Source: Mobula hypostoma | Lineage: Eukaryota | Length of the DNA: 64,000 nt | Reading direction: 5' to 3' | Assembly: GCF_963921235.1 (NCBI RefSeq) | Contig: NC_086097.1 | Location: forward strand, 48,920,001-48,984,000 | Part shown: one piece after another, positions 1,104-64,000 of the stretch | Layout of the letters: each line of letters opens with the position of its first letter | Position numbering within the stretch: the first letter of the stretch is position 1 | Program-made: the position numbers and the translations under genes | The notes under the pieces: model-generated | Databases searched by the model: none | Seen by the model: only the letters and a program-made list of their open reading frames with translations | What the model was told of the DNA's origin: nothing

Positions 1104-1385
1104 ACCATGGTACCGTAGTGGTTAGCACAACGCTATTACAGCTTGGGGGCATCAGAATTTAGAGTTCTTACGTCTGTAAGGAGTTTGTATCCTCTCCTCG
1201 TGATCGCAAGGGTTTCCTCCTGGTGCTCCAGTTTTCTCCCACAGTCCAAAGATGTACAGTTAGTAGGTTAATTGGTCATTGTAAATTGTCCTGTGATTAA
1301 ACTGGGTTTAAATAGGTGGGTTGTTGGGTAGCATGGTTTATTGGGCTGTAAGGGCCTGACCCGCACTGTATCTCTAAATAAAATG
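1104..1385 (+). mobile_element. tRNA-derived V-SINE (HE1-like)
   Basis: A-box-like GGTACCGTAGTGGTTAG head, V-domain GGAGTTTGTAT...GGTTTCCTCCTGGTGCTCCAGTTTTCTCCCACAGTCCAAAGA, tail GCACTGTATCTCTAAATAAAA. Confidence 0.85.
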
Positions 1386-1627
1386 AATGACTACAATAAT
1401 ATTTAGGTGGATCTGCGCTACATACAAATCTACTACAGCTGCTCCAAGAGCAGAGCACTACACTAGATGTATTCTTAACTAAACCTGCTAAAAGTTTTGC
1501 AGACTTCCATTTTCCAATATTCCAATATTCAACACCTTTACATTAGTTTTACTTTTCACTTTTTATATCTACCTGATGTATATTAGTGTTCTGTGTACAA
1601 TGGCCCAGGTTGTTTGGACCTGTTCTA

Positions 1628-2902: not shown

Positions 2903-2959
2903 CCCATTGCATGTAAGTCAATACGAAATATACCGTATGGTTGAGGCTTCAGCTCCTAC

Positions 2960-4756
2960 CCTTGTAGGACAGAAACAGGTGAATTGATTATGGGGAGCAA
3001 GGACATGGCAGACCAATTGAATAATTACTTTGGTTCTGTCTTCACTAAGGAGGACATAAATAATCTTCCAGAAATAGTAAGGGACAGAGGGTCCAGTGAG
3101 ATGGAGGAACTGAGCGAAATACATGTTAGTAGGGAAGTGGTGTTAGGTAAATTGAAGGGATTGAAGGCAGATAAATCCCCAGGGCCAGATGGTCTGCATC
3201 CCAGAGTGCTTAAGGAAGTAGCCCAAGAAATAGTGGATGCATTAGTGATAATTTTTCAAAACTCGTTAGATTCTGGACTAGTTCCTGAGGATTGGAGGGT
3301 GGCTAATGTAACCCCACTTTTTAAAAAAGGAGGGAGAGAGAAACCGGGGAATTATAGGCCGGTTAGCCTAACGTCGGTGGTGGGGAAACTGCTGGAGTCA
3401 GTTATCAAGGATGTGATAACAGCACATTTGGAAAGCGGTGAAATGATTGGACAAAGTCAGCATGGATTTGTGAAAGGAAAATCATGTCTGACGAATCTCA
3501 TAGAATTTTTTGAGGATGTAACTAGTAGAGTGGATAGGGGAGAACCAGTGGATGTGGTATATTTGGATTTTCAAAAGGCTTTTGACAAGGTCCCACACAG
3601 GAGATTAGTGTGCAAACTTAAAGCACACGGTATTGGGGGTAAGGTATTGGTGTGGGTGGAGAATTGGTTAGCAGACAGGAAGCAAAGAGTGGGAATAAAC
3701 GGGACCTTTTCAGAATGGCAGGCGGTGACTAGTGGGGTACCACAAGGCTCAGTGCTGGGACCCCAGTTGTTTACAATATATATTAATGACTTGGATGAGG
3801 GAATTAAATGCAGCATCTCCAAGTTTGCGGATGACACGAAGCTGGGTGGCAGTTTTAGCAGTGAGGAGGATGCTAAGAGGATGCAGGGTGACTTGGATAG
3901 GTTGGGTGAGTGGGCAAACTCATGGCAGATGCAATTTAATGTGGATAAATGTGAAGTTATCCACTTTGGTGGCAAAAATAGGAAAACAGATTATTATCTG
4001 AATGGTGGCCGATTAGGAAAAGGGGAGGTGCAACGAGACCTGGGTGTCATTATACACCAGTCATTGAAAGTGGGCATGCAGGTACAGCAGGCGGTGAAAA
4101 AGGCGAACGGTATGCTGGCATTTATAGCGAGAGGATTCAAGTACAGGAGCAGGGAGGTACTACTGCAGTTGTACAAGGCCTTGGTGAGACCACACCTGGA
4201 GTATTGTGTGCAGTTTTGGTCCCCTAATCTGAGGAAAGACATCTTTGCCATAGAGGGAGTACAAAGAAGGTTCACCAGATTGATTCCTGGGATGGCAGGT
4301 CTTTCATATGAAGAAAGACTGGATGAACTGGGCTTGTACTCGTTGGAATTTAGAAGATTGAGGGGGGATCTGATTGAAACGTATAAGATCCTAAAGGGAT
4401 TGGACAGGCTGGATGCGGGAAGATTGTTCCCGATGTTGGGGAGGTCCAGAACGAGGGGTCACAGTTTGAGGATAGAGGGGAAGCCTTTTAGGACCGAGAT
4501 TAGGAAAAACTTCTTCACACAGAGAGTGGTGAATCTGTGGAATTCTCTGCCACAGCAAACTGTTGAGGCCAGTTCATTAGCTATGTTTAAAAGGAAGTTA
4601 GATATGGCCCTTGTGGCTACAGGGGTCAGGGGGTATGGAGAGAAGGCTGGGTTCTGAGTTGGATGATCAGCCATGATCATAATAAATGGCGGTGCAGGCT
4701 CGAAGGGCCGAATGGCCTACTCCTGCACCTATTTTCTATGTTTCTATGTTTCTATG
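2960..4756 (+). mobile_element. Young 5'-truncated CR1 LINE
   Basis: Open RT ORF, CR1 3'UTR hairpin region (GGCTCGAAGGGCCGAATGGCCTACTCCTGC) and (TTTCTATG)n tail. Confidence 0.95.
2984..4657 (+). CDS. CR1 ORF2 fragment: reverse transcriptase plus C-terminal domain, endonuclease missing
   Basis: 557 aa with KSPGPDG, NYRPVSLTS, YLDFQKAFDKV, GVPQGSVLGP, KFADDTK, HLEYCVQFWSP motifs. Confidence 0.9.
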   Translation: MIMGSKDMADQLNNYFGSVFTKEDINNLPEIVRDRGSSEMEELSEIHVSREVVLGKLKGLKADKSPGPDGLHPRVLKEVAQEIVDALVIIFQNSLDSGLVPEDWRVANVTPLFKKGGREKPGNYRPVSLTSVVGKLLESVIKDVITAHLESGEMIGQSQHGFVKGKSCLTNLIEFFEDVTSRVDRGEPVDVVYLDFQKAFDKVPHRRLVCKLKAHGIGGKVLVWVENWLADRKQRVGINGTFSEWQAVTSGVPQGSVLGPQLFTIYINDLDEGIKCSISKFADDTKLGGSFSSEEDAKRMQGDLDRLGEWANSWQMQFNVDKCEVIHFGGKNRKTDYYLNGGRLGKGEVQRDLGVIIHQSLKVGMQVQQAVKKANGMLAFIARGFKYRSREVLLQLYKALVRPHLEYCVQFWSPNLRKDIFAIEGVQRRFTRLIPGMAGLSYEERLDELGLYSLEFRRLRGDLIETYKILKGLDRLDAGRLFPMLGRSRTRGHSLRIEGKPFRTEIRKNFFTQRVVNLWNSLPQQTVEASSLAMFKRKLDMALVATGVRGYGEKAGF

Positions 4757-7700: not shown

Positions 7701-9351
7701 CATGACATACCAAAACCAGAATTTATGAAGCAAAAATTAATGTGAGAAGCCTATGATCCTTAACGCAGTTGTGAAAAATATTGAGTTGGTGTTCATTACA
7801 ATCTACACCTTCATCAATCTTAAGATACAACACAGGAAATTTAAAATGTTCTGTTTTGTACATGTAACAGTTACTGACTGCAGGTGACACTGGACTGAAA
7901 CATCAGCAGTGTCTCATTGTCTTAATGTGCCATGAACTTCCAAAATGATTTAAAAATCAATGTGTATACTTTAAAGATTTTATTATTTGCAGCTCAATAA
8001 TTAAAATTTTGAATCATTTTGTATTTAATGGAGAGTTATGGGAATTCCTTCTTAAGCTTCAGGATAATTAATTTCTCTAAGACATTCTCTTGTTCAGCAG
8101 CTTATTGCAATTGTATATGCCACTGATTTGCATTATATTTATTTCCTTGTGCATCAGTTTTGTCAAATGGCACGCATGCCTCCTGTATTTTTCAAGGCTG
8201 CCAGCAACATGTATTCCTAATAGAATCTCAGGAAGAATATATAGAATCCTGCAAACATATCTTATGCTACTATGCTGAAGCACACATCTTTGTTTGGAAT
8301 AAACAGACAACATCAAAGTGTCCTTTGTTCCTGTTTCATGCTCAGATGCTGACAATTTCTATTAAATAAATAAATAAATAATGCATCACGGCTTTTATCA
8401 TTAAATCTGCAGCAATTGTAGTACATCAAGAGCAGTTTTGCAGAATGTTACAGTACACTTGTCTCTTCAAGACCCAGATGTTGAGTAAGATAAAAAGAAA
8501 AATAACTCCATATGAAATAAAACAGAATTCTATTACTTCTATCACATTACTCTTCAGTTCTACATCACACACTTCCATTGTTTTCTCAGGATTCACAAAA
8601 ATGATTATTTTGCTTGACGCTTTGCTTCATTTTGCCCCTGTACTTTAAAGTGTTCTTTTACTTTGACAATTGCTGCACCACTTGTCCATTCACCACAACA
8701 GCATTCGTGACTTTTCTGGCACTCCCAAACACTTTGATCACCTCACTATCTCTTGGACTAATTATTTTCCATCCTCGCGGATGGCTATTCAGAGGTTGTA
8801 ACATTGTGTGTAGCTGGACCACCACATACTACTGTAGAAAGAACATTGTGAAGTTCAGTGACAGAGCCAGAGTGAGTTAGGGAGGAGATTACATAATGAC
8901 ACCACCCTTGCCGACAGCCAGCTCCACACCCTTCAGTTGTTTTGAATATTGACAATGCATCGTGGGAGGGTTGCCTCCATTTTACTTCTTGTTTTGCCCT
9001 CAGACTGAGTCTCGGTCATTGAACCACGTTGACCAGCATTCTACACTTCATTGATTGGGCTCCTTCCCGACATGTTGTCTTAATTCTGGAGCAGGCTCCA
9101 TTCAGACTCATCCCTCCAACAGCAATCAGTCTAATCAAGTTCTACCAGAGATTACATTTCTGCAGAGAAGGCCGACAATTTGATTCCTAGTATCCATATT
9201 AGATACTTCAGAATTTGAGCTTGAGTCTGTGTGGTGACAGATGCATTCTTTCAGTGTCTCAGTAGATTGATCCATGTGCAATATAGGTGAAACTCTGGCA
9301 AATAGAAATGAATGTGGGGGAACTGTGAGGTCATATAGTCCAGCAAGGGAA

Positions 9352-10990
9352 ATCAAAGCAGCACACACACAAAAGCTGGAGGAACTCAGCAGGCCAGGTG
9401 GCATGTATGGAAAAGAGTAAACAGCTGAGGTTTCAGGCCGAGACCATTCATCAGGACTGGAAAAAGAGATGAGGCCAGAGCAAGAAGGTGGGGGGTGGAA
9501 TACATACAAGGTGGTAGGTGATAGGTGAGGGGGACGGGTGAAGTAAAGAGCTGGGAGGTTGATTGGAGAAAGAGATACAGGGGTAATCTGATAGGAAAAG
9601 GTAGAAGATCCTGGAAGAAAGGAAAGGGGGAGGAGCACCAGAGGGAGGTGATGGGCAGTTAAGGGTGAGAGAAGGAAACGGGAATGGGAATGGTGAAGTG
9701 GGGGGGAGGTAATTACTAAAAGGTCAATAAATCAATGTTTACGGCATTAGGTTGGAGGCTACCCAGGTGGAATATAAGGCGTTGTTCCTCCAACTGGAAG
9801 GAGGCCTCATTGCAGCAGTAAAGGAGGCCGTGTACCGACATGTCGGAATGGGAATGGGAAGTAGAACTGAAATAGGTGACCACCGGGAGATCCCACTATT
9901 TCTGGCAGATGGAGTGTAGGTACTCGGCGAAGCAGTCTCCCAATCTACATTGGGTCTCACTGATATACAGGAGGCCATACCAGGAGCATCGGATACAGTA
10001 GATAGCCCCAACAGACTCACAGGTGAAGAGTCACCTCACCTGGAAGGACTGTTTGGGGCCCTGAATGGTAGTGAGGGGGGAGGTGTAGGGACAGGTGTAG
10101 CACGTGTTCTGCTTGCAAGGATAAGTGCCAAGAGGGAGATCAGTGGGGAGGGATGAATGGACAAGGGAGTCATGTAAGGAATGATCCCTGTGGAAAGTGT
10201 GGGGGTGTGGGGAACAGAAAGATGTGCTTGGTGGTGGGATCCTGTTGGAGATAGTGGAAGTTATGGAGAATTACGTGCTGGGCACAGAGGCTAGTGGGGT
10301 GTAGATGAGGCCTAGGAACCCTATCCCTGGTGTGGCAGCAGGAGGATGGTGTAAGGGTAGATATGTGCAAAATGGAAGAGATGCGGGTGAGGGCAGCATT
10401 GATGGTGGAGGAAGGAAAGTCCCTTTCTTTGAAGGAGGCCATCTCGTCAGTTCTGGAATGAAAAACCTCCTCCTGAGAGCTGATGCAGTGGAGACAGAGG
10501 AACTGAGAGAAGGGGGTGGCATTCTTACAGTGACAGGGTGGGAAGAGGTATAGTCCAGGCAGCTGTGAGAATCAGTGTGTTTATAAAAGATAACAGGAGG
10601 TAATCTTTCTGCAGAGATAGAGACAGAGAGATTGAGAAAGGGGAGTGAGGTATCAGAAATGGACCAGGTAAATTTGAGGGCAGGGTGAAGTTGGAGGGAA
10701 AGTTGATGAAGTTGATGAGCTCAGCGTGGGTGCAAGAACCAGCACCAAGGCAGTCACCAATGTAGAGTATCAAAGTTGGAGAGTGATACTGGTGTAGGCG
10801 TGGAACATAGACTGTTCTATGTAGCTGACAAAAAGTGCAGACATAGCTGGGACCCATGCAAATGCCCATGGATACACCTTTTGTTTGAAGGAAAATTATT
10901 GAGAGTGAGGATCAGTTCTGCCAGATGGAGGAGAATGGTGGTGGAGGGGAACAGGTTGGGTCGGTTGTCCAGAAAAAAGAGGAGAGCTTT
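9352..10990 (-). mobile_element. Degenerate Penelope-like element (RT C-terminus, GIY-YIG endonuclease, pLTR)
   Basis: Frameshifted fragments such as MG..MGPSY, FKERDFPSSTINAAL and the region homologous to the GIY-YIG ORF at 55753-56046; colinear with 46886-48438. Confidence 0.9.
9423..9459 (-). ncRNA. Degenerate hammerhead ribozyme motif in pLTR
   Basis: Minus strand CAGTC-CTGATGA-ATGGTCTCGGCCT-GAAA-CCTC-AGCTG. Confidence 0.55.
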
Positions 10991-12458: not shown

Positions 12459-12726
12459 CCCCCTTTTCTTTCTCCCTAGGCCTCCTGTCCCATGATCCTC
12501 TCATATCCCTTTTGCCTATCCACTTTCCAGCTCTTGGCTCCATCCCTCCCCCTCCCCCTCCCACTTTCAAATCTCTTACTAGCTGTTCTTTCAGTTAGTC
12601 CTGACGAAGAGTCTCAGCCCGAAACGTCGACTGTACCTCGTCCCAGAGATGCTGCCTGGCCTGCTGCGTTCAGCAGCAACTTTGATGTATGTTGCTTGAA
12701 TTTCCAGCATCTGCAGATTTCCTCGT
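12459..12726 (+). mobile_element. Solo Penelope-like pLTR with hammerhead
   Basis: Highly similar to 53910-54176; 9 bp direct repeat GTTTGAGTA at 12450-12458 and 12727-12735. Confidence 0.9.
12597..12632 (+). ncRNA. Minimal type-I hammerhead ribozyme
   Basis: AGTC-CTGACGA-AGAGTCTCAGCCC-GAAACGTC-GACT; core intact, one stem II mismatch. Confidence 0.75.
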
Positions 12727-12735
12727 GTTTGAGTA

Positions 12736-19439: not shown

Positions 19440-19650
19440 GGGTGTCTTGGTAGCATAGTGGTTAGCGCAGTGTTTTACAGTACCAGTGACCCAGGTTCAA
19501 TTCCCACCGCTGACTGTAAGGAGTTTATACCTTCTCCCTGTGGCCACATAGGTTTCCTCCGGGTGCTCCGTTTTCCTCCCACAGTCCAAAAATGTACCGG
19601 TTGTTAGGTAAATTGGTCGTTGTAAATTGTCTCGTGATTAGGCTAGGGTT
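19440..19650 (+). mobile_element. V-SINE, 3' truncated
   Basis: A box TAGCATAGTGG, B box GGTTCAATTCC, V-domain. Confidence 0.85.
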
Positions 19651-19770
19651 TCGGGCTGAAACGTCGACTGTTCTCTTTTCCACAGATGCTGCCTGGCCTA
19701 TTGAGTTACCCCAGCATTTTGTGTGTGTTGCTCATATTTCCAGCATCTACAGGTTTTTTCTTGTTTGTGA
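19650..19770 (+). mobile_element. Penelope-like pLTR 3' fragment with 3' half of hammerhead
   Basis: GAAACGTCGACTG...AGATGCTGCCTGGCC...CCAGCATCTACAG. Confidence 0.8.
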
Positions 19771-19819
19771 CTGGATGAAGCAAGATAATTTTCAGACATC
19801 ACTGATACCTGGGAACTCA

Positions 19820-20461
19820 TCTGGACAATAAACTGGACTAAAAATACAGAGGCTCTGAACAAGGAGGGACAGAGCCGACTGTAGTTTCTGAGGAGGCTCC
19901 GGTCATTCAACGTCTGCAGTACGATGCTGCAGGTGTTCTATGACTCAATGGTGGCCAGCGTTCTATTCTACGCTGTAGTCTGCTGGGGCAGCAGGGTGAG
20001 GGCAGCTGACACAAAGAATATCGATAAGCTCTTAAAGAAGTCTGGTTCTGTTCTGGGGTTGGAACTGGATTCCCTGGTGGTTGTGTCTGAGAGGGGGATG
20101 CTGCAGAAGCTACATAGCATTATGGAACATCCCTCTCACCCCCTCCATGATATACAGGACAATCAGAGGAACACCTTTACTAACGGACTGATTCCACCAA
20201 GGTTTCCCACCGAACACCACAGGAGATCCTTTCTCCTTGTGGCTATAGGACTCGACAACTCTTCCTCCTTAAATATACAAGTATATGGTTTCATTGCACA
20301 TCTGTATTTTGGACTATTACTTTTTAATGCATATTTTGTATTCTTTACGTACTTCAATGCTTGTATATTGTATTCGAAAGCATGTATTTCTGACTGAGCA
20401 ACCTTGCAATGATAACTTCCTTCAGGATAAAGTTTTATTTTATCTTATCTTATCTTATCTT
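19820..20461 (+). mobile_element. Rex1/Babar LINE 3' fragment
   Basis: ORF 19924-20397 (FY.S.VAS..FYAVVCWGS...HPSHPLH) homologous to C-terminus of 42385-43617; (TCTTA)n tail. Confidence 0.85.
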
Positions 20462-21999: not shown

Positions 22000-22305
22000 G
22001 GCTTTATTTGTCATATATACATTGAACATCCAAACATACAGTGAAATCCTTCATTTATGTCAAAGACCAACACAGTCTGAGGATATGCTAGGGGCAGCCC
22101 GCAAGAGTCGCCGTGCTCAGGGTGCCAACATAGCTTACTAACCCTAAGCCGTACATCTTTCGAATGTGGGAGGAAACCAGAGCACCCAGAGGATACACAT
22201 GTGGCCACAGGGAGAATGTACAAACTCCTGACAGACAGACAGCAGCAGGGATCAAACCCCGATTGCTGACAATGTAAAGCGTCGTGCCGACTGCCACACC
22301 ATCGT
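22000..22305 (-). mobile_element. V-SINE
   Basis: Reverse-complement V-domain (TGTGGGAGGAAACCAGAGCACCCAGAGG) and tRNA-like head near 22250-22300. Confidence 0.8.
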
Positions 22306-26786: not shown

Positions 26787-29067
26787 AGGGAACAGTGATC
26801 ACAATATGATTGATTTCACATTGAAATTTAAGAGGGAAAAAATAAAATCCAACGTGTCAGTATTTCAGTGCAATAAAGGAAATTACAATGGCATGAGAGG
26901 GGAACTGGCCGAAGTTGCCTGGAAAGGGACATTTGCAAGAAGGACAGCAGAGCAGCAATGTGAAAAATGAGGGACGTGCAAGACAGATATATTCCAAATA
27001 AGGAGAAATTTTCAAAGGGAAGAAGGACACTACCGTGGCTGACAAGTGAAGTCAGAGCCAAAGTAAAAGCAAAAGAGAGGGCATACATGAAGCCAAAGCT
27101 AGTGGGAAGAGAGAGGATTGGGAAGCTTTTGAAAACTTTCAGAAGGAAACTAAGGAGGTCATTAGGAAGGAGAAGATGAATTATGAAAGGAAGCTGGCAA
27201 CTAATATCAAAGAAGATACTAAAAGCTTTTTTAAAGTATATAAAGGGTAAAAGAGAGTCGAGGGTAGATATAGAACCAATACAAAATGATGCTGGAGATA
27301 TGGTAATGAGAGACACAGAGATGGCAGAGGAATTGAATGCATATTTTGCATCAGTCTTCACAGTAGAAGATGTCTGCAGTATACTGGACATTCAAGAGTG
27401 TCAGGGAAGTGAAGTTTATGCAGTGAAAATTACAACTGAGAAGGTGCTTTGGAAGCTTAATGGTCTGAGGGTGAATAAATCTCCTGGACTTGATGGAATG
27501 CACCGTTGGGTTCTGAAAGAAGTAGCTGGTGAGATTGTGGAGGCATTAATGATAACCTTTCAAGAATCGATAGATTCTGGCATTGTACCGGATGACTGGA
27601 AAATTGCAAATGTTACTGCGCTATTTAAGAAGGGTGGGAGGCAGCAGAAAGGAAACTATAGACCTGTTAGCCTGACATCAGTGGTTGGGAAGTTGTTGGA
27701 ATTGATTGTTAGGGATGAGATTACGGAGTACCTGGAGGCACATGACAAGATAGGACAAAACCTGCATGGTTTCCTGAAAGAGAAATACTGCCTGACAAAC
27801 CTACTGCAATTCTTTGAGGAAGTTACAAGCAGGGTAGACAAAGGAGATGCAGTAGATGTGGTGTACTTGGATTTTCAGAAGGCCTTTGACAATGTGCCAC
27901 ACATGAGGCTGCTTAGTAAGATAAGAGCCCATGGAATTACAGGGAAGTTACTGGCATGGGTGGAGCATTGGCTGGTCGGCAGAAAACAGAGAGTGGGAAT
28001 AAAGGGATCCTATTCAGGCTGGTTGCTGGTTACCAGTGGAGTTCCACAGGGGTCGGTGTTGGGACCGCTGCTTTTTACGATGTACGTCAATGATTTGGAC
28101 AATGGTATTAATGGATTTGTGGCTAAATTTGTCGATGATACAAAGATAGGTGGAGGATCGGGTAGTGTTGAGAAAACAGAGAACCTGTAGAGAGACTTAG
28201 ATAGTTTAGGGGAATGAGCAAAGAGGTGGCAAATAAAATACAATGTTCGAAAGTGTACAGTCATCCACTTTGGTGAAAAAATAAATGGGCAGACTATTAT
28301 TTAGATGGGCAGAGAATTCAAAATGCAGAGATGCAAAGGGACTTGGGAGTCCTTGTGCAAGATGCCCTAAAGGTTAACCTCCAGGTTGAGTTGGTTGTGA
28401 AGAAGGCAAATGTAACGTCGGTATTCTTTTCTAGAGGTATAGAATATAAGAGCAGAGATGTGATGTTGAGGATCTATAAGGCACTCGTGAGATCACACTT
28501 GGAGTATTGTGTGCAGTTTTGGTCTCCTTATTTTAGAAAGGATATACTGACATTGGAGAAGGTTCAGAGAAGATTCACAAGAATGATTCCAGGAATGAAA
28601 GGGTTACTGTATGAGGAACTTCTGGCTGCTCTTGGGCTGTATTCCCTGGAGTTCAGGAGAATGAGGTGGCATCTGATAGAAACATTCTGAATGTTAAAAG
28701 GCCTGAACAAATTAGATATGGCAAAGTTATTTCCCATGGTAGGGGATTCTAGGACAAGAGAACGCAACTTCAAGATTGAAGGGCGTCCACTTAGAACTGA
28801 GATGCGGAGAAATTACTTTAGTCAGTGGGTGATAAGTCTGTGGAATTTATTGCCACGAGCGGCTGTGGAGGCCAAGTCATTGGATGTATTTAAGGCAAAG
28901 ATAGATAGGTTCTTGATTAATCAGGACATTAAAGGGTATGGGGCGAAGGCAGGGGAGTGGGGATGACTGGAAGAATTGGATCAGCCCATGATTGAATGGT
29001 GAAGCAAACTTGACGGGCCGAATAGCCTTCTTCTGCACCTATATCCTTTGGTCTTATGGTCTTATGG
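26787..29067 (+). mobile_element. Degenerate 5'-truncated CR1, nested
   Basis: GNSDHNMI endonuclease end, RT ORF 27183-28190, C-terminal ORFs to 28966, (GTCTTATG)n tail. Confidence 0.92.
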
Positions 29068-29750
29068 AAGGCTCAGTAGTGCCTATACTATCTTAGGAGG
29101 TTAAAGAGAGCAAATCTGCCACAAAAGCTGCTGGTAAATGTTTGTCAATGTGCAATTGAGAGTATACTGACCGTGCTGCATGACAGTGGCAAAAAAATTG
29201 ACCAAAGAGCATTTCAACGAGTGATCAGGACTGCACAGAATATCACCGGGACACAATAACCAGATATGGCAACCAACTACAACTTTACGGCAGTCTCACA
29301 AAATTGTGATGGACTCATCCTCTAGTAATCACCTGTTCAACCTCCCACCATCCAGAAGGAGATACAGAAACATCTCTGCACAGACATCTAGACTAAAAAA
29401 CAGCTTTTTGCCCAGGGCTGTGCAACTGAACAACGCCATTCCCCCCCACCCACCCAGAGTCTATAGGCACTATGGTCAATCTCTCTTTGCAATACGTGGG
29501 CATTATTCTTGATGTCATTTTCTATTTAATCACTGTATTTTATACCACGGGCAAGTGCAATACCCGAATAGGGCAGCCACAGTTGCCTTGTATTTTAGAG
29601 TTGTTTGTTTCTAATTCAATTGTAACTTAGATGTCATTCTAAATAACTCCGACGTTATTTTAAATTTAGACATTGTGCGTTTATTCATTGAATTGCACTA
29701 AATGGAGTAGCAGTACAATCTTGTTGTCCTCAGAAATGACAATAAAGCTC
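29068..29750 (+). mobile_element. Rex1/Babar-type 3' part
   Basis: LYYLRRLKRANL, LPPSRRRYRNI.A.TSRLKNSF motifs, ends ...GACAATAAAG. Confidence 0.75.
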
Positions 29751-34482: not shown

Positions 34483-34624
34483 ACACAAACATAAGAAAAT
34501 CTGCAGATGCTGGAAATCCAAAGAAACCCAGTTCAGTCCTGAAGAAGGGTCTGGGCCCGAATTGTGGACTGTTTACTCTTTTCCATAGATGCTGAGTTCC
34601 TACAGCATTTTGTGCATGTTGCTG
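34483..34624. mobile_element. Short fold-back Penelope-like pLTR remnant with mutated hammerhead
   Basis: Minus-strand pLTR end (ATCTGCAGATGCTGGAAATCC) then plus-strand CAGTC-CTGAAGA-AGGGTCTGGGCCC-GAATTGTG-GACTG. Confidence 0.7.
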
Positions 34625-37812: not shown

Positions 37813-38336
37813 TTTGAAAAGATTTGGCACTCTGAGAGTGCTGAATTAACGATTCTTAAAAGGTCTTTAGCCCATGGTCTTCAGAGGCATTGTCATTTGA
37901 ACAGCCAGGCTTATTAATTGCTGTATGATTTAGTTTGTTTGATGATGCCATTAGGATATATTTTAGAACAAAGTTGTTAACAACAAGGAGAGGCAGTGTA
38001 CAGTTTAGTGAAGCATAGGGCTATTGGCTTGAATCCTGGGCTTCCTATCTCCCTGGAAACTATCAATGTGTATAATTTTACTTAGAATTACATATTGACT
38101 TCTTTATGACTTTAGAACATCATCACCTTGAAATTACTGCTGCTAATAAGAACAAATAGGTTAAAACCTCTACTGAAACTGCTGTCTGAGGAACTCTAGA
38201 AACTGTGAATAGATGCCCATGGGGTATTGTTGGCAGTGGTTCTAAGTCAGCCAATGGGAATACAATACTGAAATCAATACTTCAGAAACAGGGTAATGAA
38301 GTTATTTGGTAACTACAGTGAGAGACAGAGTAGTTT

Positions 38337-49737: not shown

Positions 49738-51979
49738 GTAAGGAGGATATTCCCATGGTGCAAATACATTTACAGTCATCAACTTTGATTACTAAAATGC
49801 ACATTTCCTCAATGAAAGCTTCTTACTTAAGCATTATCTACCTGACATGCTGTATTACCATACAAATATTATTAAGCTCTTAATTTTGCCATAACTAATG
49901 ATAATTTTTTAGCTATTCTTATGTATCTTTATAGGACAGAATTCTTCTTTATCTGTATGTACAGCAAGCTCCGAGGTTCCAATTGTCTAAAGATTAATTA
50001 CACAAAGTAACATTGCAGACTGAATTCACTTGGAGTCAAAACCAAGTCAAAGCAAATTGTGGTTCTTTCCATTTTGCTGCTCAGTTCTCCTCAGTATACA
50101 TGCAATTAACTTCCTAAGGTCCACTTTAACATTTCTGCAAAGCAATGCAATATTTTTATAAACCATGGTATGTGTCCCAAATTATTTTACACTTCCTGCT
50201 AGTACCATAAATAAATTTCTTTTCAATAGTGAGTCAACATGATGCTAAATATACAACTTCAAATTAATCTGTTCCTATTGTGTATCATGTTCATGTTTCT
50301 CTGAATTCTATATCTTAACTTCTTTAGGATGACTAAATTTATATCTGGCTTTGCATATTTAATTTCTTTTGAAACCAAATGTGTCCGTGGTATCAGAGAT
50401 CTTTTCTTAGCTTCCGGTGTTAAATATATACAACTGTCAACATCAGGAATACTTTGACATCCCTGAACATACTGCATTGAAGACATTCTGTAATAATTTG
50501 GCATAATCCTAATCATTTATTTGATCCAGATGTTGAAATGCCACAGCTGCAAGTCCAATATAAGTCTAAATTTCAAAGTCATTCTAATGCATGAGCACAT
50601 TTAAACTTTAATAGTGTGATGATATTGACTGTAATGGTATCCCTGCAGCGACAGTGTAAAGTTCTTCATATGTAGTTTCATAATATCTAGAAGAGGAATC
50701 TCACTGGGAGTCTGGAGCTCATTGCAAGGCATAAGAAATCATGTCCTTTAGCTCCAGCTGTTATGTGTATGTGCAAAAAAAAAAGTCCTCGTTATTGCTG
50801 GTCTGAAATTCCTATTGCACTGCAAATGCCAACATCAACCGAGAACCAAACTGAAGTTTTTGATCAGAAACAAGAAAAACAAAATGCAGATGGCAAGCAA
50901 ATTAAATGAATATTTTTTTAAAAACCTGACTGACAAATCACAGGCAGTCATAAAAAGAAAAATAAAATCCCAAACTGCAACCAGAGGTTTCTTAGATATT
51001 GGACCAAGAATTAGTTATCACAGCCAGGATTCGCTGGTGGCATTGAGTGAAACAAAATGCATAAACTGGCCTTTAAAAGAAGTGCTGAAATGGAGATTAT
51101 TACATTTTAAAAGGGTTGTGCTAATTCCTTCTGAGATCCTCATGTAATGATAACATTTATTTAAAACATTGAACATTTATCCTGGTGCACCGTGCATATG
51201 TAAAATGACAGCAAAGCTAATCCCTGACAATAATGTTCATGCATTGTAATTATCTCTTCTGTGCCTTTCGATGCACAAATCAGTCCAGCTGCTCTCTGAA
51301 GCTTACCATCAGGGTTTGTATTCAATTCCCAGGGTCTGTCATACATTTCTGATACTCTGAGACATCAACTCATCTTCCTGTCATTTTGTGCTATCACCTA
51401 CGAAGCTATTCTACAATAAGGTTTATCTTAAAAGCACAACATAATCATCATCTTCCTCACCATCGGAAAATATAAATGCTTTATGATTCACTAATAAATC
51501 CACCCAAACATTATTGGTTATTTTTCGATCCGTAGTCTCGTTTCATGGAATATTTATGAATTGGCTTTTGTGATGATAATGATTTTCCTAATTGTGTGTT
51601 TCATATTGGTTTGCAAATATGTAGGATGAAATGGTAGTTAAATGTCCCAGTGCAATATCTAAATATATGTTGCTAGATTTGTTGTTAACATGCTTCCTAT
51701 TTCCTTGTCTCATATTCAAACTTGTTTTCATGTTTTCATTTCTGAGCCAGAGTAAATAGAATACACGGCCAGTAGTAGATCAATTAAAAATATCACCCAT
51801 TGGAAATAAATACTGTAATAGTTCTGCAGCATTAAATCTTGCGACGAGTGGGTTTACTTTACATGAGGAGATATTGTGGGTTTGGTTAATAATCAGCCTC
51901 CACGGGCACTATCAAGAGATAACAGTAGGTGTTTTGATTTCTGGTAAGTTTATGCAGATATTAGAAAACAAGACGTTAT

Positions 51980-52225
51980 TTAATTAATTAATTGAGATAC
52001 AGTCGGGAATAGGCCCTTCCAGCCCTTCGATCTGCGACACCCAGCAACCACTAATTTAACCCTAGCCTAATCACTGGACAATTTATAGTGACTGGTATGT
52101 CTTTGGACTGTGGGAGGAAACCAGAGCACCCAGAGGAAACCTATGTGGTAGTTGGGAGAATGGACCAACTCCTTACAGAAAGTGGTGGGAACTGAACCGG
52201 GGTCAGTAAAGAATCATGCCACCAT
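51980..52225 (-). mobile_element. V-SINE
   Basis: CTTTGGACTGTGGGAGGAAACCAGAGCACCCAGAGGAAAC is the reverse-complement V-domain. Confidence 0.8.
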
Positions 52226-53342: not shown

Positions 53343-53556
53343 TTTTTTTCTATCTCATTTTAGTCTGCAGTAAGTTGTAGTTAAATAAAAATTCACCGAT
53401 TTATTTCACCAACCCCATCTATTTTTTTTAATCCAGTCAGACTGTGTATAATTGACACAAACACGAGGAATTCTTCAGATGCTGGAAATTCAAGCAACAC
53501 ACATCAAAGTTGCTGGTGAACGCAGCAGGCCAGTCAGCATCTCTAGGAAGAGGTAC

Positions 53557-53592
53557 AGTCGACATTTCGGGTCAAGACCCTTCGTCAGGACT
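53557..53592 (-). ncRNA. Minimal type-I hammerhead ribozyme
   Basis: AGTC-CTGACGA-AGGGTCTTGACCC-GAAATGTC-GACT. Confidence 0.75.
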
Positions 53593-54080
53593 AACTGAAG
53601 GAAGAGTTAGTAAGAGATTTGAAAGTGGGAGGGGGAGGGGGAGATCCAAAATGATAGGAGAAGGCAGGAGGGGGAGGGATGGAACCAAGAGCTGGACAGG
53701 TGATTGGCAAAAGGGATACGAGAGGATCATGGGACAGGAGGCGCAGATGGCATGAACATTGACTTCTCTAACTTCCGCTAATGCCCCACCTCCCCCTCGT
53801 ACCCCATCCGTTATTTATTTATATACACACATACTTTCTCTCTCTCTCCTTTTTCTCCCTCTGTCCCTCTGACTATACCCCTTGCCCATCTTCTGGATTT
53901 TTCCCCCCTCCCCCTTTTCTTTCTCCCTAGGCCTCCTGTCCCATGATCCTCTCATATCCCTTTTGCCAATCACCTGTCCAGCTCTTGGCTCCATCCCTCC
54001 CCCTCCTGTCTTCTCCTATCATTTTGGATCTCCCCCTCCCCGTCTCACTTTCAAATCTCTTACTCACTCTTCCTTCAGTT

Positions 54081-54116
54081 AGTCCTGACGAAGGGTCTCG
54101 GCCCGAAACGTCGACT
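54081..54116 (+). ncRNA. Minimal type-I hammerhead ribozyme, best copy
   Basis: AGTC-CTGACGA-A-GGGT-CTCG-GCCC-GAAACGTC-GACT; predicted cleavage after C54112. Confidence 0.85.
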
Positions 54117-54259
54117 GTACCTCTTCCTAGAGATGCTGCCTGGCCTGCTGCGCTCACCAGCAACTTTGATGTGCGTTGTGTATAATTGATTTGTCTCTGA
54201 TTCATTCTCTTTCACTGTTATTTCTCTTCATTCACAATAAGTCAGTCAAGGATCTACAC

Positions 54260-54552: not shown

Positions 54553-55426
54553 CAAGCCCATCGCCTGTTAAGATCACAGATGCTTCACTCTCTTCCAAAT
54601 TAGTTCAGGTCCTGCATGATAGAATATAAACTACAACACAACTAGAGGGCAATAAATGTCTAATACTGCATGCCATAAGACTGAAGGTTTGATCCAATTA
54701 ATAATCTAGTTAGCTATCTTAAATAACATCCATGATTCTTCTATTTTAAAAAGACAAGTATTAAAAACAACATTCAATCATCGATTAAAATGTACTTACA
54801 CTGCAATGCGAACTATCCTGTGCTCCTGATAAAGGTCCTGTTAAATCACTGGTTCGTAGCCAGAATTGGAAGTATTGATCTGCAGACATGAGCTCAAAGC
54901 CTAGCAGCCAGGTAATATAGGTACAAGAAATCAAATAAACCAGGAATTAATAAAATCAATTGTATTAAAAGGTTGATTAGCAGTCTTGAAACACAAAAAA
55001 ATGTCCTATCAATGTTATCCATGAAGCTACTGGCTCACATTTCTGATGTGCTTTAAGCACCAACATCTGCCAAACTGATCCAGTTTGGCCTATGTGTGAC
55101 TCGCAACCCACTGTGGTGAACAACTGTATCAAAATGAGGGTGGGAATAAATGCTGGGATTATCAGTTTCAGTGCAACCTGTGAATAAATTAATCAGAAAT
55201 ATAATTTCTTAGATTTACAATGAGTGCATATGAACAGTGAGAAGCATTCCAGTCAGGAAATCAAGAAAAGTTAGCCATGGTAGGCAGTGCAAACAACACC
55301 AATCTGGAAAGATATGAACAAATTATTCAGTTCAGATCAAACTGCTATGATTAGTACATTTAAGCAACACACATAAAAGTTGCTGGTGAACACAGCAGGC
55401 CAAGCAGCATCTCTAGGAAGAGGTGC

Positions 55427-55462
55427 AGTCGACGTTTCAGGCCGAGACCCTTCGTCAGGACT
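55427..55462 (-). ncRNA. Minimal type-I hammerhead ribozyme
   Basis: AGTC-CTGACGA-AGGGTCTCGGCCT-GAAACGTC-GACT. Confidence 0.8.
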
Positions 55463-55752
55463 AACTGAAGGAAGAGTGAGTAAGGGATTTGAAAGTTGGA
55501 GGGGGAGGGGGAGATCCAAAATGATAGGAGAAGACAGGAGGGGGAGGGATAGAGCCAAGAGCTGGACAGGTGATAGGCAAAAGGGATACGAGAGGATCAT
55601 GGGACAGGAGGTCCAGGAAGAAAGACAAGGGGGGGGACCCAGAGGATGGGCAAGGGGTATATTCAGAGGGACAGAGGGAGAAAAAGGAGAGTGAGAGAAA
55701 GAATGTGTGTATAAAATAAGTAACAGATGGGGTACGAGGGGGAGGTGGGGCA

Positions 55753-56034
55753 TTAGCGGAAGTTAGAGAAGTCGATGTTCATGCCATCAGGTTGGAGGCT
55801 ACCCAGACGGAATATAAGGTGTTGTTCCTCCAACCTGAGTGTGGCTTCATCTTTACAGTAGAGGAGGCCGTGGATAGACATGTCAGAATGGGAATGGGAT
55901 GTGGAATTAAAATGTGTGGCCACTGGGAGATCCTGCTTTCTCTGGCGGACAGAGCGTAGGTGTTCAGCAAAGTGGTTTCCCAGTCTGCGTCGGGTCTCGC
56001 CAATATATAAAAGGTCACATCGGGAGCACCGGAC
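55753..56034 (-). pseudogene. GIY-YIG endonuclease C-terminal fragment of a Penelope-like ORF
   Basis: CSRCDLLYIGETRRRLGNHFAEHLRSV...VATHFN...LEEQHLIFRLGSLQPDGMN. Confidence 0.85.
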
Positions 56035-56269
56035 GCTCGAATGCACCTCTTCCTAGAGATGCTGCCTGGCCTACTGCGTTCACCAGCAACTTTTATGTGT
56101 GTTGCTTTAATTTCCAGCATCTGCAGAATTCCTGTTGATTAGTACATTTGTTCAGTTTCAAAAGCTTTTGGCAATCATAATACCTTCTTAATTCTTGTAT
56201 CTCAACCCTATTTCAATCTTACTCACCCGACTTGGAACATTTAGCAGTAAAGTATTGTCCATTTTTATC

Positions 56270-58566
56270 AGCCGAGTGAGTTTTCTGCTGTCATCCTGGT
56301 AGCAGTGTACTACACATTCCACCTCAGGCCAATGTCTGACAGGCTCTGGAGGAGCTGAGCACCGAGATCAGCATTCATGAAACAGCACACCCTGATTCCT
56401 TCCCTAACCAGGCGAACTTGAAGAAGTCTCTGAACAACTACCACCAACATATCACCTGTGGAACCAGAGGCGCCAACACACTTGACCACAGTTTTACCAT
56501 CATCAAGAATGCATACCGTGCCATCCCACAGCTACGCTTTGGCAAGTCTGATCACATGCCTGTACTTCTACTCCTGGCAAACAGACCGAGACTAAAGACC
56601 ACAGCACCAGTGGTGAGAGCCAAGAAGGTATGGTCAAGGGAGGCGGAGGGATGCTCACAGGACTGCTTTCAGTCAATGGACTGGACAATATTCAGGGGTG
56701 CATCTTGGAATCTGAATGAATACGCCACAGTTGTCACTGACTTCATCAAGGTCTGTGTGGATGAGTGTGTGCCTTCAAGAACATACCAGACATATCCAAA
56801 CCAGAAGTGGTGGATGAACCAGGAGATTAGTAGACTGCTGAAGTCTTGATCTCTGGCAGCAAAATACAGTGATCCAGAACTATATAAGAAGTCCAGATAT
56901 GACCTTCAGAAGTCTATTTTAAGAGCAAAATAAAACAATTCCAGTTGAAGTTAGAGATGGAATCAAATGCATGTCAACTCTGGCAGGGTTTGCAGGCCAT
57001 AACTTCTTACAAGGTAAAAGATAACATCATCAATGGCTGTGATGCTTCACTCCCAGATCAGCTCAACACCTTTTATGTAAAGGGAGAATGAAACTACATC
57101 TGTGAGAATCCCTGTAGCATCTGGTGACCTTGTGATCTCTGTCTCGGAGGCTGACCTGAGAACATCTTTCAAGAGGGTGAATCCTCTCAAGGCATCAGGC
57201 CCTGATAGTCTACCTGGGAGGGAGCTGAAAACTTGTGCCAACTAACTGATGGGAGTGTTCAAGGACATCTTCGATCTCTCACTGCTACAGTCGGAGATTT
57301 CCACCTGCTTTAAAAGGCAGCAGTCATACCAGTGCCCAAGAAGAGCAGGTTGAGCTGCCTCAATGACTATAGACCAATTGCACTCAGATCAACTGAGACA
57401 TGGTGCTTTAAGATGTTGGTTATGGCGAGAATCAACTCTCACCTAAGCCAGGACCTGAACCCACTGCAATCTCACTAGCTTTCTACTCGACCTTGGATAC
57501 CTACATCAGACTGCTGTTTATTGATTACAGCTCAGCGTTCAACACCATCATACTCTCAGTTCTAATCAACAAGCTCCAAAACCTGGGTCTCTACCTCCCT
57601 CTGCAATTGGATCCTTGACTTCCTTATCAGAAGACCACAGTCGGTGTGGATCAGAAATCACATCTCATCTTCACTGAAAATCAACACTGGTCCACCTCTA
57701 GGATGTGTGCTTAGCCCACTGTTCTACTCTCTGTACACCCACAACTGCATGGCTAGGCACAGCTCAAATTCTGTCTATAAATTTGCCAATGACACAATTA
57801 TTGTTGGCAGAATTTTAGATGGTGATGGGGAGACCGGTTGAGTGGTCTCGTTACAACAACCTTGTCAAAGTCAGTAAGACTAAAGAATTAATTGTGGACT
57901 TAAGGAAGGGGAAGTCAAGGGAACACACACCAGCCCTTAAGGGATCAGCGGTGGAAAGAATGAGCAGTTTCAGCTTCCTTGGTGTCAACACCCCAGGCCC
58001 AACAGCTTGATGCAATTACAAAGAAGGCATGACAGTGGCTATATTACATCAGGAGTTTGAGGAGACTTGGCATGACACCAAAGACTCTCTTAAATTTCGA
58101 CAGATGTATCGTAGAAATCATTCTAACTGGTTGCGTCACCATCTGGTACGGAGGGGCAACTGCACAGGATCAGAAAAAGCTGCAGAAAGTTGTAAACTCA
58201 GCCAGCTCCATCATGTGCACTAGCATCGAGGACGTCTTCAAAACGTGATGCTTCAAAAAGGCGGCATCCATCATTAAGGGCCCCTATCACCCAGAGTGTG
58301 CCCTCTTCTCACTGCTACCATCAAGCAGGAGGAAAAGGAACGTGAAGACACAAATTCTACACTTTAGAAACAGCTTTTGCCGTCAGATTTGTGAATGGAC
58401 AATGAACCCATATGCAGACTACCTCAATATTTTGTTCTCTTTTTTTTTGCTTTATTTATTTATTTTATTTTTTAAAAATATACTTCTTATAAATTATAGT
58501 TTTTTATTATTATGTATTGCTGCCATATGACATATGGCTGTGATATTAAACCTGATTGTGATTCTA
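56270..58566 (+). mobile_element. Degenerate Rex1/Babar-type LINE
   Basis: Endonuclease (TRGANTLDH, FGKSDH), RT ([24 protein letters not shown]) with many stops; tail ATTAAACCTGATTGTGATTCT. Confidence 0.88.
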
Positions 58567-59463: not shown

Positions 59464-59815
59464 TACAGTACTGTGCATTTTTAAAATCTGAGTGACGATG
59501 TTTTCAAAAATAATGAAATGAAAAGTTTCTAAATATCAAAAAATGACTAAAGAGAGTAAACAGTGAAAAAAAGCTAAATCAAATCAATATTTGGTGTGAT
59601 CATCCTTTACCTTTAAAACTGCTTCAATTCTCAGGTATAGTGTTGTGCGGGTATATAAGAAAATTGGCTAGTAGTTTGTTCCAAGCATCTTGGAGAGATT
59701 GCCACAGTTCTTCTGCAGACTTTGGCTGTCTCACTTGCTTCACTCTCTCTACAGGTAATCCCAGATAACCTCGATGATGTTGAGATCAGGGCTCTGTGGA
59801 GGCCATTCCATCCAA
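59464..59815 (-). mobile_element. Tc1/mariner transposon end fragment
   Basis: TA+CAGTACTGTGCA terminus at 59464; transposase motif MEWPPQSPDLNIIEVIWDYL on minus strand. Confidence 0.85.
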
Positions 59816-60212
59816 AACCGTATAAAAATCCAGGGTGCCCAGGTATCTTGCACAGGATGGTATATCAGCATGTTTAATTTGCTTTGCACACTGTTCAATT
59901 TGCCCGTTTTTGCTAACTTCAAGCCAGCTGAAGAACAAAAGCCATGGCAAAGCAAGCTGCTAGCCAAATGACCTGTATCTATCAGATATTATTGGAATAT
60001 ATGCCGAGCTGTTTGTGCTGCCCGTTGTTCATATGCAAAGGACCACTAAGAATGACTGCATAACTTCCTTTATGGATTTGCCTTAGCTGAATGGTCTATT
60101 TAACTGCTTAATTATATTTTCCTGAACGGCTGCAAAAGGACACCTGTGGTGTGTTTCTCAGGCCAGCTCTCTGATTTAACCAGGTCAATGGCATAGTTAT
60201 CTATCATCGCTG

Positions 60213-61329: not shown

Positions 61330-61700
61330 TTCAGAGGGACAGAGGGAGAAAAAGGAGAGTGAGAGAAAGAATGTGTGTCCGGGAAGAAAGATAAGGAGGG
61401 GTGTCCCTCTGAATATACCCCTTGCCCATCCTCTGGGTCACCCCCCCCCTCTTTCTTCCCGGACCTCCTGTCCCATGATCCTCTCATATCCCCTTTTGCC
61501 TATCACCTGTCCAGCTCTCGGCTCTATCCCTCCCCTCCTGTCTTCTCCTATCATTTTGGATCTCCCCCTCCCCCTCCAACTTTCAAATCCCTTACTCACT
61601 CTTCCTTCAGTTAGTCCTGACTAAGTGTCTCGGCCTGAAACGTCGACTGCACCTCTTCCTACAGATGCTGCTTGGCCTGCTGCGTTCACCAGCAACTTTG
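61330..61700 (+). mobile_element. Penelope-like pLTR with rearranged inverted 5' pieces and mutated hammerhead (61613-61648)
   Basis: Matches 55380-55710; core reads CTGACTA instead of CTGACGA. Confidence 0.88.
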
Positions 61701-61724
61701 AAGGATTTTCTCATGTTGAATTTG

Positions 61725-63857: not shown

Positions 63858-64000
63858 AACACACACAAAATGCTATCACCTATCACCTGGTGTTTCACTC
63901 TCCCCTCCCACCACCTTTTGAATCTACTTCTCAGCTTTTTTTTTTCCCCGGTCCTGTCGAAACGTTTCAGCCCGAAATGTGGACTGTACTTTTTTTCCAC
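63858..64000 (+). mobile_element. Penelope-like pLTR cut by the window edge, degenerate hammerhead at 63950-63986
   Basis: TCACCTATCACCTGG...GGTCCTGTCGAAACGTTTCAGCCCGAAATGTGGACTG, similar to 48220-48345. Confidence 0.7.

What the first reader, a model, noticed from the sequence alone, without database searches (positions are those of the whole stretch)
54081..54116. Family of minimal hammerhead ribozymes dispersed across the window
Seen: AGUC CUGACGA A GGGU-CUCG-GCCC GAAA CG UC GACU contains both conserved hammerhead boxes (CUGANGA, GAAA), a stem II, a closing stem I (AGUC/GACU) and a GUC cleavage triplet. Stem III is reduced to the palindrome ACGU. Intact or near-intact copies lie at 12597(+), 53557(-), 54081(+), 55427(-); decayed ones at 9423(-), 34534(+), 45379(-), 45418(+), 48301(+), 61613(+), 63950(+). 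Established: Penelope-like elements carry minimal type-I hammerheads in pLTRs that are thought to cleave as dimers via a palindromic stem III. Inference: about one motif per 6 kb implies a very large genome-wide ribozyme load that could cleave any pre-mRNA spanning this locus.
Basis: partly seen in the sequence, partly recalled or inferred. Interest (0 to 1): 0.8.

Follow-up and report, generated by a model that had tools for sequence, protein, structure and literature searches.

The report
Penelope retrotransposon hammerheads, massively amplified
The repeated 36-base motif is the known minimal self-cutting RNA carried at the ends of Penelope-like jumping genes; this fish genome holds an unusually large number of copies, but lone copies probably cannot cut host transcripts.

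Summary
All 11 listed copies exist (three coordinates off by 1-4 bases). Each sits in the terminal repeat (pLTR) of a Neptune-type Penelope-like element (PLE) in a 3.48-Gb genome, probably a cartilaginous fish. Six of eight full-length elements examined carry the motif in both pLTRs around a 1043-aa RT/GIY-YIG frame. Distant PLEs keep the core and the ACGU palindrome while stem I covaries, so it is a true minimal hammerhead, a kind described in 2014. The load is real: 90,678 intact cores genome-wide (control 414), one per 38 kb, about ten times the highest count in that paper. Pre-mRNA cleavage is not supported. Published monomers are inactive. The monomer here is predicted to misfold. Same-strand partners are no commoner than chance, and 54081 is buried in a long hairpin with its inverted twin. 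Lineages with A6C or a G-U pair in place of G10.1-C11.1 still amplified. Side result: 25 of 26 inverted twin insertions have one long and one short 3' end, with target duplications of about 14 bp. No cleavage or RNA data were obtained. This scan reported the same family earlier in this genome and in others.

The parts
54081..54116 (+). Minimal type-I hammerhead: stem I 54081-84/54113-16, CUGACGA 54085-91, inserted A 54092, stem II 54093-54104 (G10.1-C11.1), GAAA 54105-08, ACGU palindrome 54108-11, predicted cut after C54112
53746..54178 (+). 5'-truncated PLE copy (end of endonuclease ORF, 3' UTR/pLTR, hammerhead), short 3' end about +66 from the cut site
   Evidence: 90% identical to L037:3829-4260
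53455..53742 (-). Inverted twin arm of the same insertion, with hammerhead 53557-53592 (palindrome decayed to AUGU) and long 3' end (tail, about +105)
53443..53455 (+). Left copy of a 13-bp target duplication (right copy 54177-54189)
55358..56036 (-). 5'-truncated young PLE copy (GIY-YIG end, pLTR) with hammerhead 55427-55462 (G10.1-U11.1), short 3' end
   Evidence: 95% identical to L037:3581-4261
56037..56140 (+). Inverted twin arm that begins 1-2 nt before the cut site (no ribozyme), long 3' end; 14-bp target duplication at 55348-55361 and 56136-56149
46885..48437 (+). Older PLE remnant: RT C-terminal part, CX4CXXC linker, broken GIY-YIG region, pLTR with decayed hammerhead 48302-48337 (A6C, G8A)
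9348..10990 (-). Older PLE remnant with hammerhead 9423-9458 (core boxes kept, stems and palindrome broken)
   Evidence: 76% identical to L037:2551-3848
12459..12734 (+). pLTR-only copy with hammerhead 12597-12632 (core intact, stem II mismatch), long 3' end
45286..45512 (.). Head-to-head pair of another subfamily: decayed hammerheads 45379-45414(-) and 45414-45449(+)
34483..34595 (.). Decayed hammerhead 34535-34570(+) with an inverted tail arm 34483-34521(-)
61402..61709 (+). Young pLTR copy with hammerhead 61613-61648 inactivated at G8
63876..63995 (+). Old pLTR copy with decayed hammerhead 63950-63985, near the window end
19645..19769 (+).

Best explanation
The motif is the minimal hammerhead of a young, highly amplified Neptune-type PLE. 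SHOWN: a full element is pLTR(hammerhead)-ORF-pLTR(hammerhead), with cut sites about 3.5 kb apart. Reverse transcription evidently starts about 55-74 or 101-106 nt downstream of the cut site, so nearly every 5'-truncated copy carries the motif; this is why it is dispersed at such density. INFERRED: the ribozyme is kept for the element's own RNA. On a transcript spanning two pLTRs, two motifs swap strands through the ACGU palindrome, probably helped by the element's protein, and cut out a unit-length RNA that may be re-ligated into a circle and copied more than once round. Lone genomic copies are by-products. They lack a same-strand partner, are predicted to misfold (the core's GACG pairs with CGUC), are often buried in an inverted-repeat hairpin, and decay by CpG loss. 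Identity of the motif: about 0.95. Inertness of lone copies: about 0.85. Cleavage being used in this element's cycle: about 0.55.
For: Window remnants match a full-length element at 76-95%. The 1043-aa frame hits RVT_1 (E 5.6e-5) and GIY-YIG (E 0.002), both below Pfam's cut-off, and has the CX4CXXC linker. 6 of 8 full-frame elements have a complete hammerhead in both pLTRs, up to 99.7% identical. Related PLEs at about 40-50% protein identity carry the same core, inserted A and ACGU, with stem I changed GUC/GAC to GCU/AGC and a different loop II: 9 of 80 loci on the + strand, 8 of them one family, 0 in shuffles. Among 30 young loci picked by their tail (some pairs are two arms of one insertion), core non-CpG sites differ 2/249 against 63/1797 in flanks (p = 0.02). 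3' ends: 48 short, 43 long, 5 other of 96. Monomer MFE -12.9 against -8.9 kcal/mol for the hammerhead-like fold; active dimer -16.7 against -25.8 for two monomers. Same-strand neighbour within 4 kb: 8 of 100, 11.7 expected; head-to-head: 31 of 100. Variants private to one insertion occur in both of its pLTRs (L201, L202).
Against: No cleavage was measured. Master lineages amplified with weakened ribozymes: only 24,044 of 90,678 cores keep C11.1, and all hammerheads of the full-length elements examined have U there. An older subfamily has A6C, 1,946 against 753 with A6. Subfamily O2 has an A-C mismatch in stem I (4 copies). 5' ends do not pile up at the cut site. The covariation is about two independent events between two lineages, not nine. 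The core-versus-flank contrast is confounded by subfamily variants and pyrimidine-tract indels. Folding energies ignore tertiary contacts and co-transcriptional folding. In Anolis PAc, ribozyme mutants did not affect insertion in vitro.
Confidence: 0.75

Rival explanations
1. The hammerhead is catalytically dispensable in this lineage: a passenger, or a structure that helps place the protein and the RT start, with only weak selection on chemistry.
For: A6C, U11.1 and stem I mismatch lineages amplified. Natural A6C cores cleave poorly in Mg2+ (PMC7151607; PMC3088659). Naiad PLEs lack hammerheads and still proliferate (PMC8557442). PAc mutants insert normally in vitro. No 5'-end pile-up at the cut site.
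Against: Core, inserted A and palindrome are identical between elements at about 45% protein identity while loop II and flanks are not. The departures seen are mild ones: a G-U wobble, the free N7 position, and A6C, a known low-activity natural variant. No sampled subfamily had lost G8 or G12 as its majority state (read).
Confidence: 0.3
2. One reading: dispersed copies cut host pre-mRNAs, as monomers or by pairing in cis or in trans with other transcribed copies, and so load or regulate the transcriptome.
For: 90,678 intact cores: a 500-kb gene would hold several on its sense strand. Retrozymes are depleted from Xenopus introns (bioRxiv 2026.07.22.740005). Domesticated intronic hammerheads exist in amniotes (PMC6155905).
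Against: Monomers are inactive in print; 8 of 9 Xenopus dimer elements did not cleave. The predicted misfold and hairpin burial. The median same-strand gap is 36-45 kb. The 4-bp palindrome gives a weak dimer. + and - counts are equal genome-wide, but no gene-relative strand test was possible.
Confidence: 0.08
3. Chance resemblance of a repeat to the hammerhead consensus.
For: No Rfam hammerhead hit; no compensatory change among subfamilies inside this genome.
Against: Correct position in both pLTRs, the known inserted A and palindrome, covariation with distant PLEs, 0 hits in shuffles.
Confidence: 0.01

Closest known systems
Minimal hammerheads (min-HHR) in pLTRs of metazoan Penelope-like elements (Cervera and De la Pena 2014, PMC4209133)
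   Same: Type I, no real stem III, palindromic 15.2-16.2, unpaired base between 9 and 10.1, 4-5 bp stem I, in both pLTRs, mostly dispersed single copies, some opposite-strand pairs 100-700 bp apart; reported from Neptune PLEs of fishes.
   Different: Stem II is 4 bp rather than 7-8 as in Schistosoma. Most copies have G10.1-U11.1 instead of the conserved G-C. 90,678 intact cores against about 4,000 (coelacanth) and 9,000 (Xenopus), with different descriptors. A cartilaginous fish is not named in the parts of the text I read; its supplements were not seen.
Neptune clade of PLEs (as described in PMC8557442)
   Same: Single ORF, RT, Zn-finger-like linker, C-terminal GIY-YIG; partial tandems, inverted 5' copy, 30-40 bp tail at one end.
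   Different: Clade assigned by linker and domain order, not by a tree; target duplications of about 14 bp, against 8-10 bp in rotifer PLEs (PMC3846280).
Anolis Poseidon element PAc (PMC11167929)
   Same: Hammerhead at the pLTR-ORF junction; two RT start sites that define the tail; both target strands used.
   Different: Different clade. Here the ORF starts after the ribozyme, not inside it. Here the two ends of one insertion almost always use different start sites, while PAc showed no strand difference in vitro.
Non-LTR retrozymes of animals (bioRxiv 10.64898/2026.07.22.740005)
   Same: pLTR-derived, hammerhead-bearing short repeats; found in one chondrichthyan.
   Different: Retrozymes are tandem non-autonomous units; these copies are dispersed truncations of an autonomous element with few same-strand neighbours.

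Membership tests
PLE minimal hammerhead | CUGANGA and GAAA boxes with NUH triplet | tested here: met
PLE minimal hammerhead | [quoted passage not shown] | tested here: met
   A54092; same in distant PLEs
PLE minimal hammerhead | Palindromic 15-16 region in place of stem III | tested here: met
   ACGU in the window and in the metagenome family
PLE minimal hammerhead | Stems I and II supported by covariation | tested here: met
   Two stem I pairs change on both sides between two lineages; 55 of 56 cells paired. Few independent events; none found inside this genome
PLE minimal hammerhead | G10.1-C11.1 pair | tested here: inconclusive
   Met at 54081; only 24,044 of 90,678 cores keep C11.1; 19 of 27 young loci covering the position have U
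PLE minimal hammerhead | Located in both pLTRs of a full-length PLE | tested here: met
   6 of 8 full-frame elements; the other two are 5'-truncated in or after the motif
PLE minimal hammerhead | Self-cleavage as a dimer | not testable with these tools
   The dimer fold is possible but not favoured in energy; needs an assay
Neptune-type PLE | Single ORF with RT and C-terminal GIY-YIG endonuclease | tested here: met
   1043-aa frame; RVT_1 and GIY-YIG hits below the curated cut-offs
Neptune-type PLE | CX2-5CXXC linker between RT and endonuclease | tested here: met
   CKRNKCYTC in L037
Neptune-type PLE | Partial tandems, inverted 5' copies, tail at one end | tested here: met
Neptune-type PLE | RT phylogeny with named Neptune references (to exclude Nematis) | not tested
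   No named reference sequences in hand
Canonical hammerheads in Rfam | Match to an Rfam hammerhead model; stable stem III | tested here: not met
   No hit at E<=1; stem III absent
Non-LTR retrozyme | Tandem hammerhead-bearing units without coding capacity | tested here: not met
   Same-strand neighbours within 1 kb: 4 of 100, 3.1 expected; copies are truncations of a coding element

The most novel reading that the evidence does not exclude
This genome holds a very young PLE whose insertions record how its RNA is used. The two hammerheads cut out a 3.5-kb unit that is ligated into a circle. A protein dimer then nicks both DNA strands about 14 bp apart and primes one strand at a fixed site (+101 to +106) and the other at a looser site 30-45 nt upstream, so every twin insertion gets one long and one short end, and both pLTRs of a daughter share private variants. 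With about 90,000 cores and natural lineages differing at the core (A6 or C6) and at 10.1-11.1, the open question of what PLE hammerheads do could be tested directly: by looking for circles and cut ends in gonad RNA, and by comparing full-length output between lineages.
Probability: 0.25. Interest if true: 0.6.

Novelty: new member of a known kind. Interest (0 to 1): 0.27.

Why it matters
The kind is known, so the motif itself is ordinary. What the genome adds is scale and youth: a count of intact cores about ten times the highest in the founding paper, many elements with open 1043-aa frames, and natural core variants. That makes it good material for asking whether PLE hammerheads cut and circularise the element's RNA, and whether hosts purge sense-strand intronic copies.

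Tried and rejected
Compensatory change inside the genome: the window suggested GGUC/GACC in the 45379/45414 pair, but 4 genomic copies of that subfamily read AGUC/GACC, a mismatch; the G came from the inversion junction. Rejected. Cleavage footprint at 5' ends: the 56037 arm starts beside the cut site, but of 30 tail-anchored loci one begins at +2 and none at +1, and 5 of 55 nearby 5' ends fall within 4 nt, close to an even spread. Rejected; the cluster at -29 to -46 is partly due to picking loci by the ribozyme pattern. Microhomology priming at short ends: mean 1.3 nt in 23 pairs, no control computed; inconclusive. Host gene: Pfam on the 150 longest of 349 unmasked frames gave only mobile-element or marginal hits; 199 frames were not scanned. 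RNA evidence: no RNA holder listed, and no reads were laid, so expression and RNA ends remain open. Pfam found nothing in the window's own PLE remnants; they were identified through homologues. Lunse et al. (RNA Biol., PLE hammerhead dimers) is not held; I know it only as cited in PMC6765202. An unbiased random genome sample was not obtained, so the total including decayed copies is unknown; tail anchors give floors of 64,045 (young) and 39,133 (older).

Full report
Observation. A mismatch scan found all 11 listed copies and a twelfth, truncated one at 19645; three listed coordinates are off by 1-4 bases. Six of the 11 keep all core nucleotides. Two (54081+, 55427-) pass a full descriptor of core, stems and palindrome, against 0 hits in 50 shuffles. 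Rfam has no matching model at E<=1, as expected for a motif without stem III.

What carries it. Self-comparison showed each copy inside one repeat family. The longest remnant, 46885-48437, encodes a frame whose three homologues among 626 candidates include Stegostoma and Chiloscyllium proteins at 55-59% identity. The host is therefore probably a cartilaginous fish; I did not determine the species. The genome is 3.48 Gb. A search with the Chiloscyllium protein scored 68 places from 105,123 candidates, many with open frames of 1043 aa. One of them, L037, shows the full layout: an inverted 5' piece, a pLTR with the hammerhead, a 1043-aa frame, and a second pLTR with the hammerhead 3.5 kb downstream. 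The frame hits RVT_1 and GIY-YIG, both under Pfam's cut-offs, and has the CX4CXXC linker that PMC8557442 gives for Neptune and Nematis (passages). Of 8 elements with the 1043-aa frame that I examined, 6 have a complete hammerhead in both pLTRs, with pLTR identity of 96.5-99.7%; the other two are truncated in or after the 5' motif. The window's fragments match L037 at about 70-96%.

Is it a real hammerhead? A scan of metagenome contigs returned 80 loci with related PLE proteins. Nine had a + strand motif passing the descriptor, eight of one family lying about 105-150 nt after the protein match; shuffles gave 0. That family keeps CUGACGA, the inserted A, GAAA and ACGUC, but reads GCU/AGC in stem I where this genome reads GUC/GAC, and has another loop II and dissimilar flanks. 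55 of 56 cells pair, but this is about two independent compensatory events between two lineages. Among 30 young loci chosen by their tail, non-CpG core sites differ in 2 of 249 cells and flanks in 63 of 1797 (p = 0.02), confounded by subfamily variants.

How many. The exact young 34-mer has 45,751 matches. Core boxes plus ACGUC have 90,678, control 414: one per 38 kb, one per 77 kb on a strand. PMC4209133 gives about 4,000 for coelacanth and 9,000 for Xenopus with another descriptor (parts 1-2 of 4 read). One per 6 kb is the window's density with decayed copies; I could not verify it genome-wide.

Why they are everywhere. 3' ends fall in two groups: 48 short (+50 to +76 from the cut site), 43 long (+95 to +110 as aligned, mostly +101 to +106), 5 other, of 96 hits. 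This is the PLE tail, which PMC11167929 traces to two RT start sites (parts 1-2 of 4 read). Since copying starts just downstream of the ribozyme, short copies include it: 21 of 30 tail-anchored loci cover the whole 36-mer and 18 of those keep the core. Copies run through the cut site, so the template was uncut or re-ligated there.

Would lone copies cut a pre-mRNA? Probably not. In print, a min-HHR monomer gave no cleavage and dimers little; PAc cleaved only with protein and left no RNA-seq ends at the site; 1 of 9 Xenopus dimer elements cleaved (passages). Here the 38-nt monomer folds best as a rod in which the core's GACG pairs with CGUC (-12.9 against -8.9 kcal/mol), and the active dimer (-16.7) is weaker than two rods. 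In natural flanks the stems form with probability under 0.1 for three of four copies, and stem II up to 0.3 for the fourth. The 54081 and 53557 copies are arms of one inverted insertion; a transcript of either strand buries the sense ribozyme in a long hairpin. Among the first 100 intact cores of contig C1, 8 have a same-strand neighbour within 4 kb (11.7 expected), while 31 have a head-to-head partner. Against this reading: these are energy predictions and analogies, no RNA data were obtained, and I could not tell whether the window is inside a gene.

How much does the element need catalysis? Only 24,044 of 90,678 cores keep C11.1, and the full-length young elements all have U, so this is a change in the master lineage, not decay of copies. 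An older subfamily has C at position 6 in 1,946 matches against 753 with A; A6C is a known natural variant with low activity in Mg2+ (PMC7151607, abstract and Results; PMC3088659, passages). Another has a stem I mismatch. These are mild defects, so the deep conservation still favours a catalytic role, but a passenger or structural role keeps about 0.3.

Side result. Of 27 inverted-pair rows I dropped L197 as a duplicate of L020; five duplicate loci had been removed before the count, and L009, aligned to +94 there and +103, was counted long. 25 of the 26 pairs have one long and one short end (binomial p = 4e-7); the exception, L198, has a 2-kb gap and no clear target duplication. 23 of the 25 have an exact duplication of 10 bp or more, median 14. 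A tail at one end only, inverted pLTRs and target duplications are described (PMC8557442; PMC3846280, passages); the near-strict exclusivity is a sharper statement of that. It fits two nicks primed at different RT start sites (inference). A search for Penelope, twin priming and pLTR listed 15 of 16 papers, none holding both twin priming and pLTR. L201 and L202 each show a private variant in both pLTRs, which fits a circular or re-read template but does not prove it.

Literature and novelty. PMC4209133 already reports min-HHRs in Neptune PLEs of fishes and their genome-wide dispersal. Searches for a cartilaginous-fish report found only the retrozyme preprint, which includes one chondrichthyan (abstract, Results part 1 of 2, passages). 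A shark and ray genome-size preprint does not mention Penelope or ribozymes (word search). PMC6765202 and PMC6155905 were seen as passages. Supplements of PMC4209133 and the Lunse et al. paper were not seen and may list such species. Hammerhead position numbering follows PMC4209133 and my own knowledge. Earlier notes of this scan reached the same reading in this genome; they are not independent support.

Verdict. A new member of a known kind, correctly spotted. The large load is real; the proposed effect on host pre-mRNA is unlikely. Interest 0.27.

Noticed in passing
window 53455-54178 and 55358-56140; loci L001-L035, L179-L198: Inverted twin insertions nearly always pair one long and one short 3' end (25 of 26), with target duplications of about 14 bp.
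   Followed up: yes
window 48302-48337; genome-wide: An older subfamily amplified with an A6C core (1,946 against 753 with A6), the natural variant reported to prefer Mn2+.
   Followed up: partly
L037, L199-L204: All full-length young elements examined have U at 11.1; the inserted A could then pair with it in another register (A-U closing pair). Not tested.
   Followed up: partly
L201, L202: Private variants are shared by the 5' and 3' pLTR of one insertion, as a circular or re-read template would give.
   Followed up: partly
P0001 C-terminus: The predicted Stegostoma protein runs through the pLTR; its last residues resemble the translation of this hammerhead, suggesting the same motif in shark PLEs.
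   Followed up: no
L127:57: A hammerhead with the U3-A8 core variant and a 7-bp stem II, upstream of the PLE match; it may belong to another element.
   Followed up: no
window 2945-4657(+), 27180-29069(+), 38333-39305(-), 42346-43617(+), 19805-20397(+), 56340-56849(-): Other retroelement (LINE-like) remnants; the first, second and fourth have RVT_1 hits, with open frames of 570, 336 and 423 aa.
   Followed up: no
window 59547-59988: Weak DDE_3 hit (E 0.003), probably a decayed DNA transposon.
   Followed up: no
window 1167-1399, 19487-19650, 22139-22238, 51976-52205: Another short dispersed repeat family; the copy at 19514-19650 abuts the truncated hammerhead copy at 19645.
   Followed up: no
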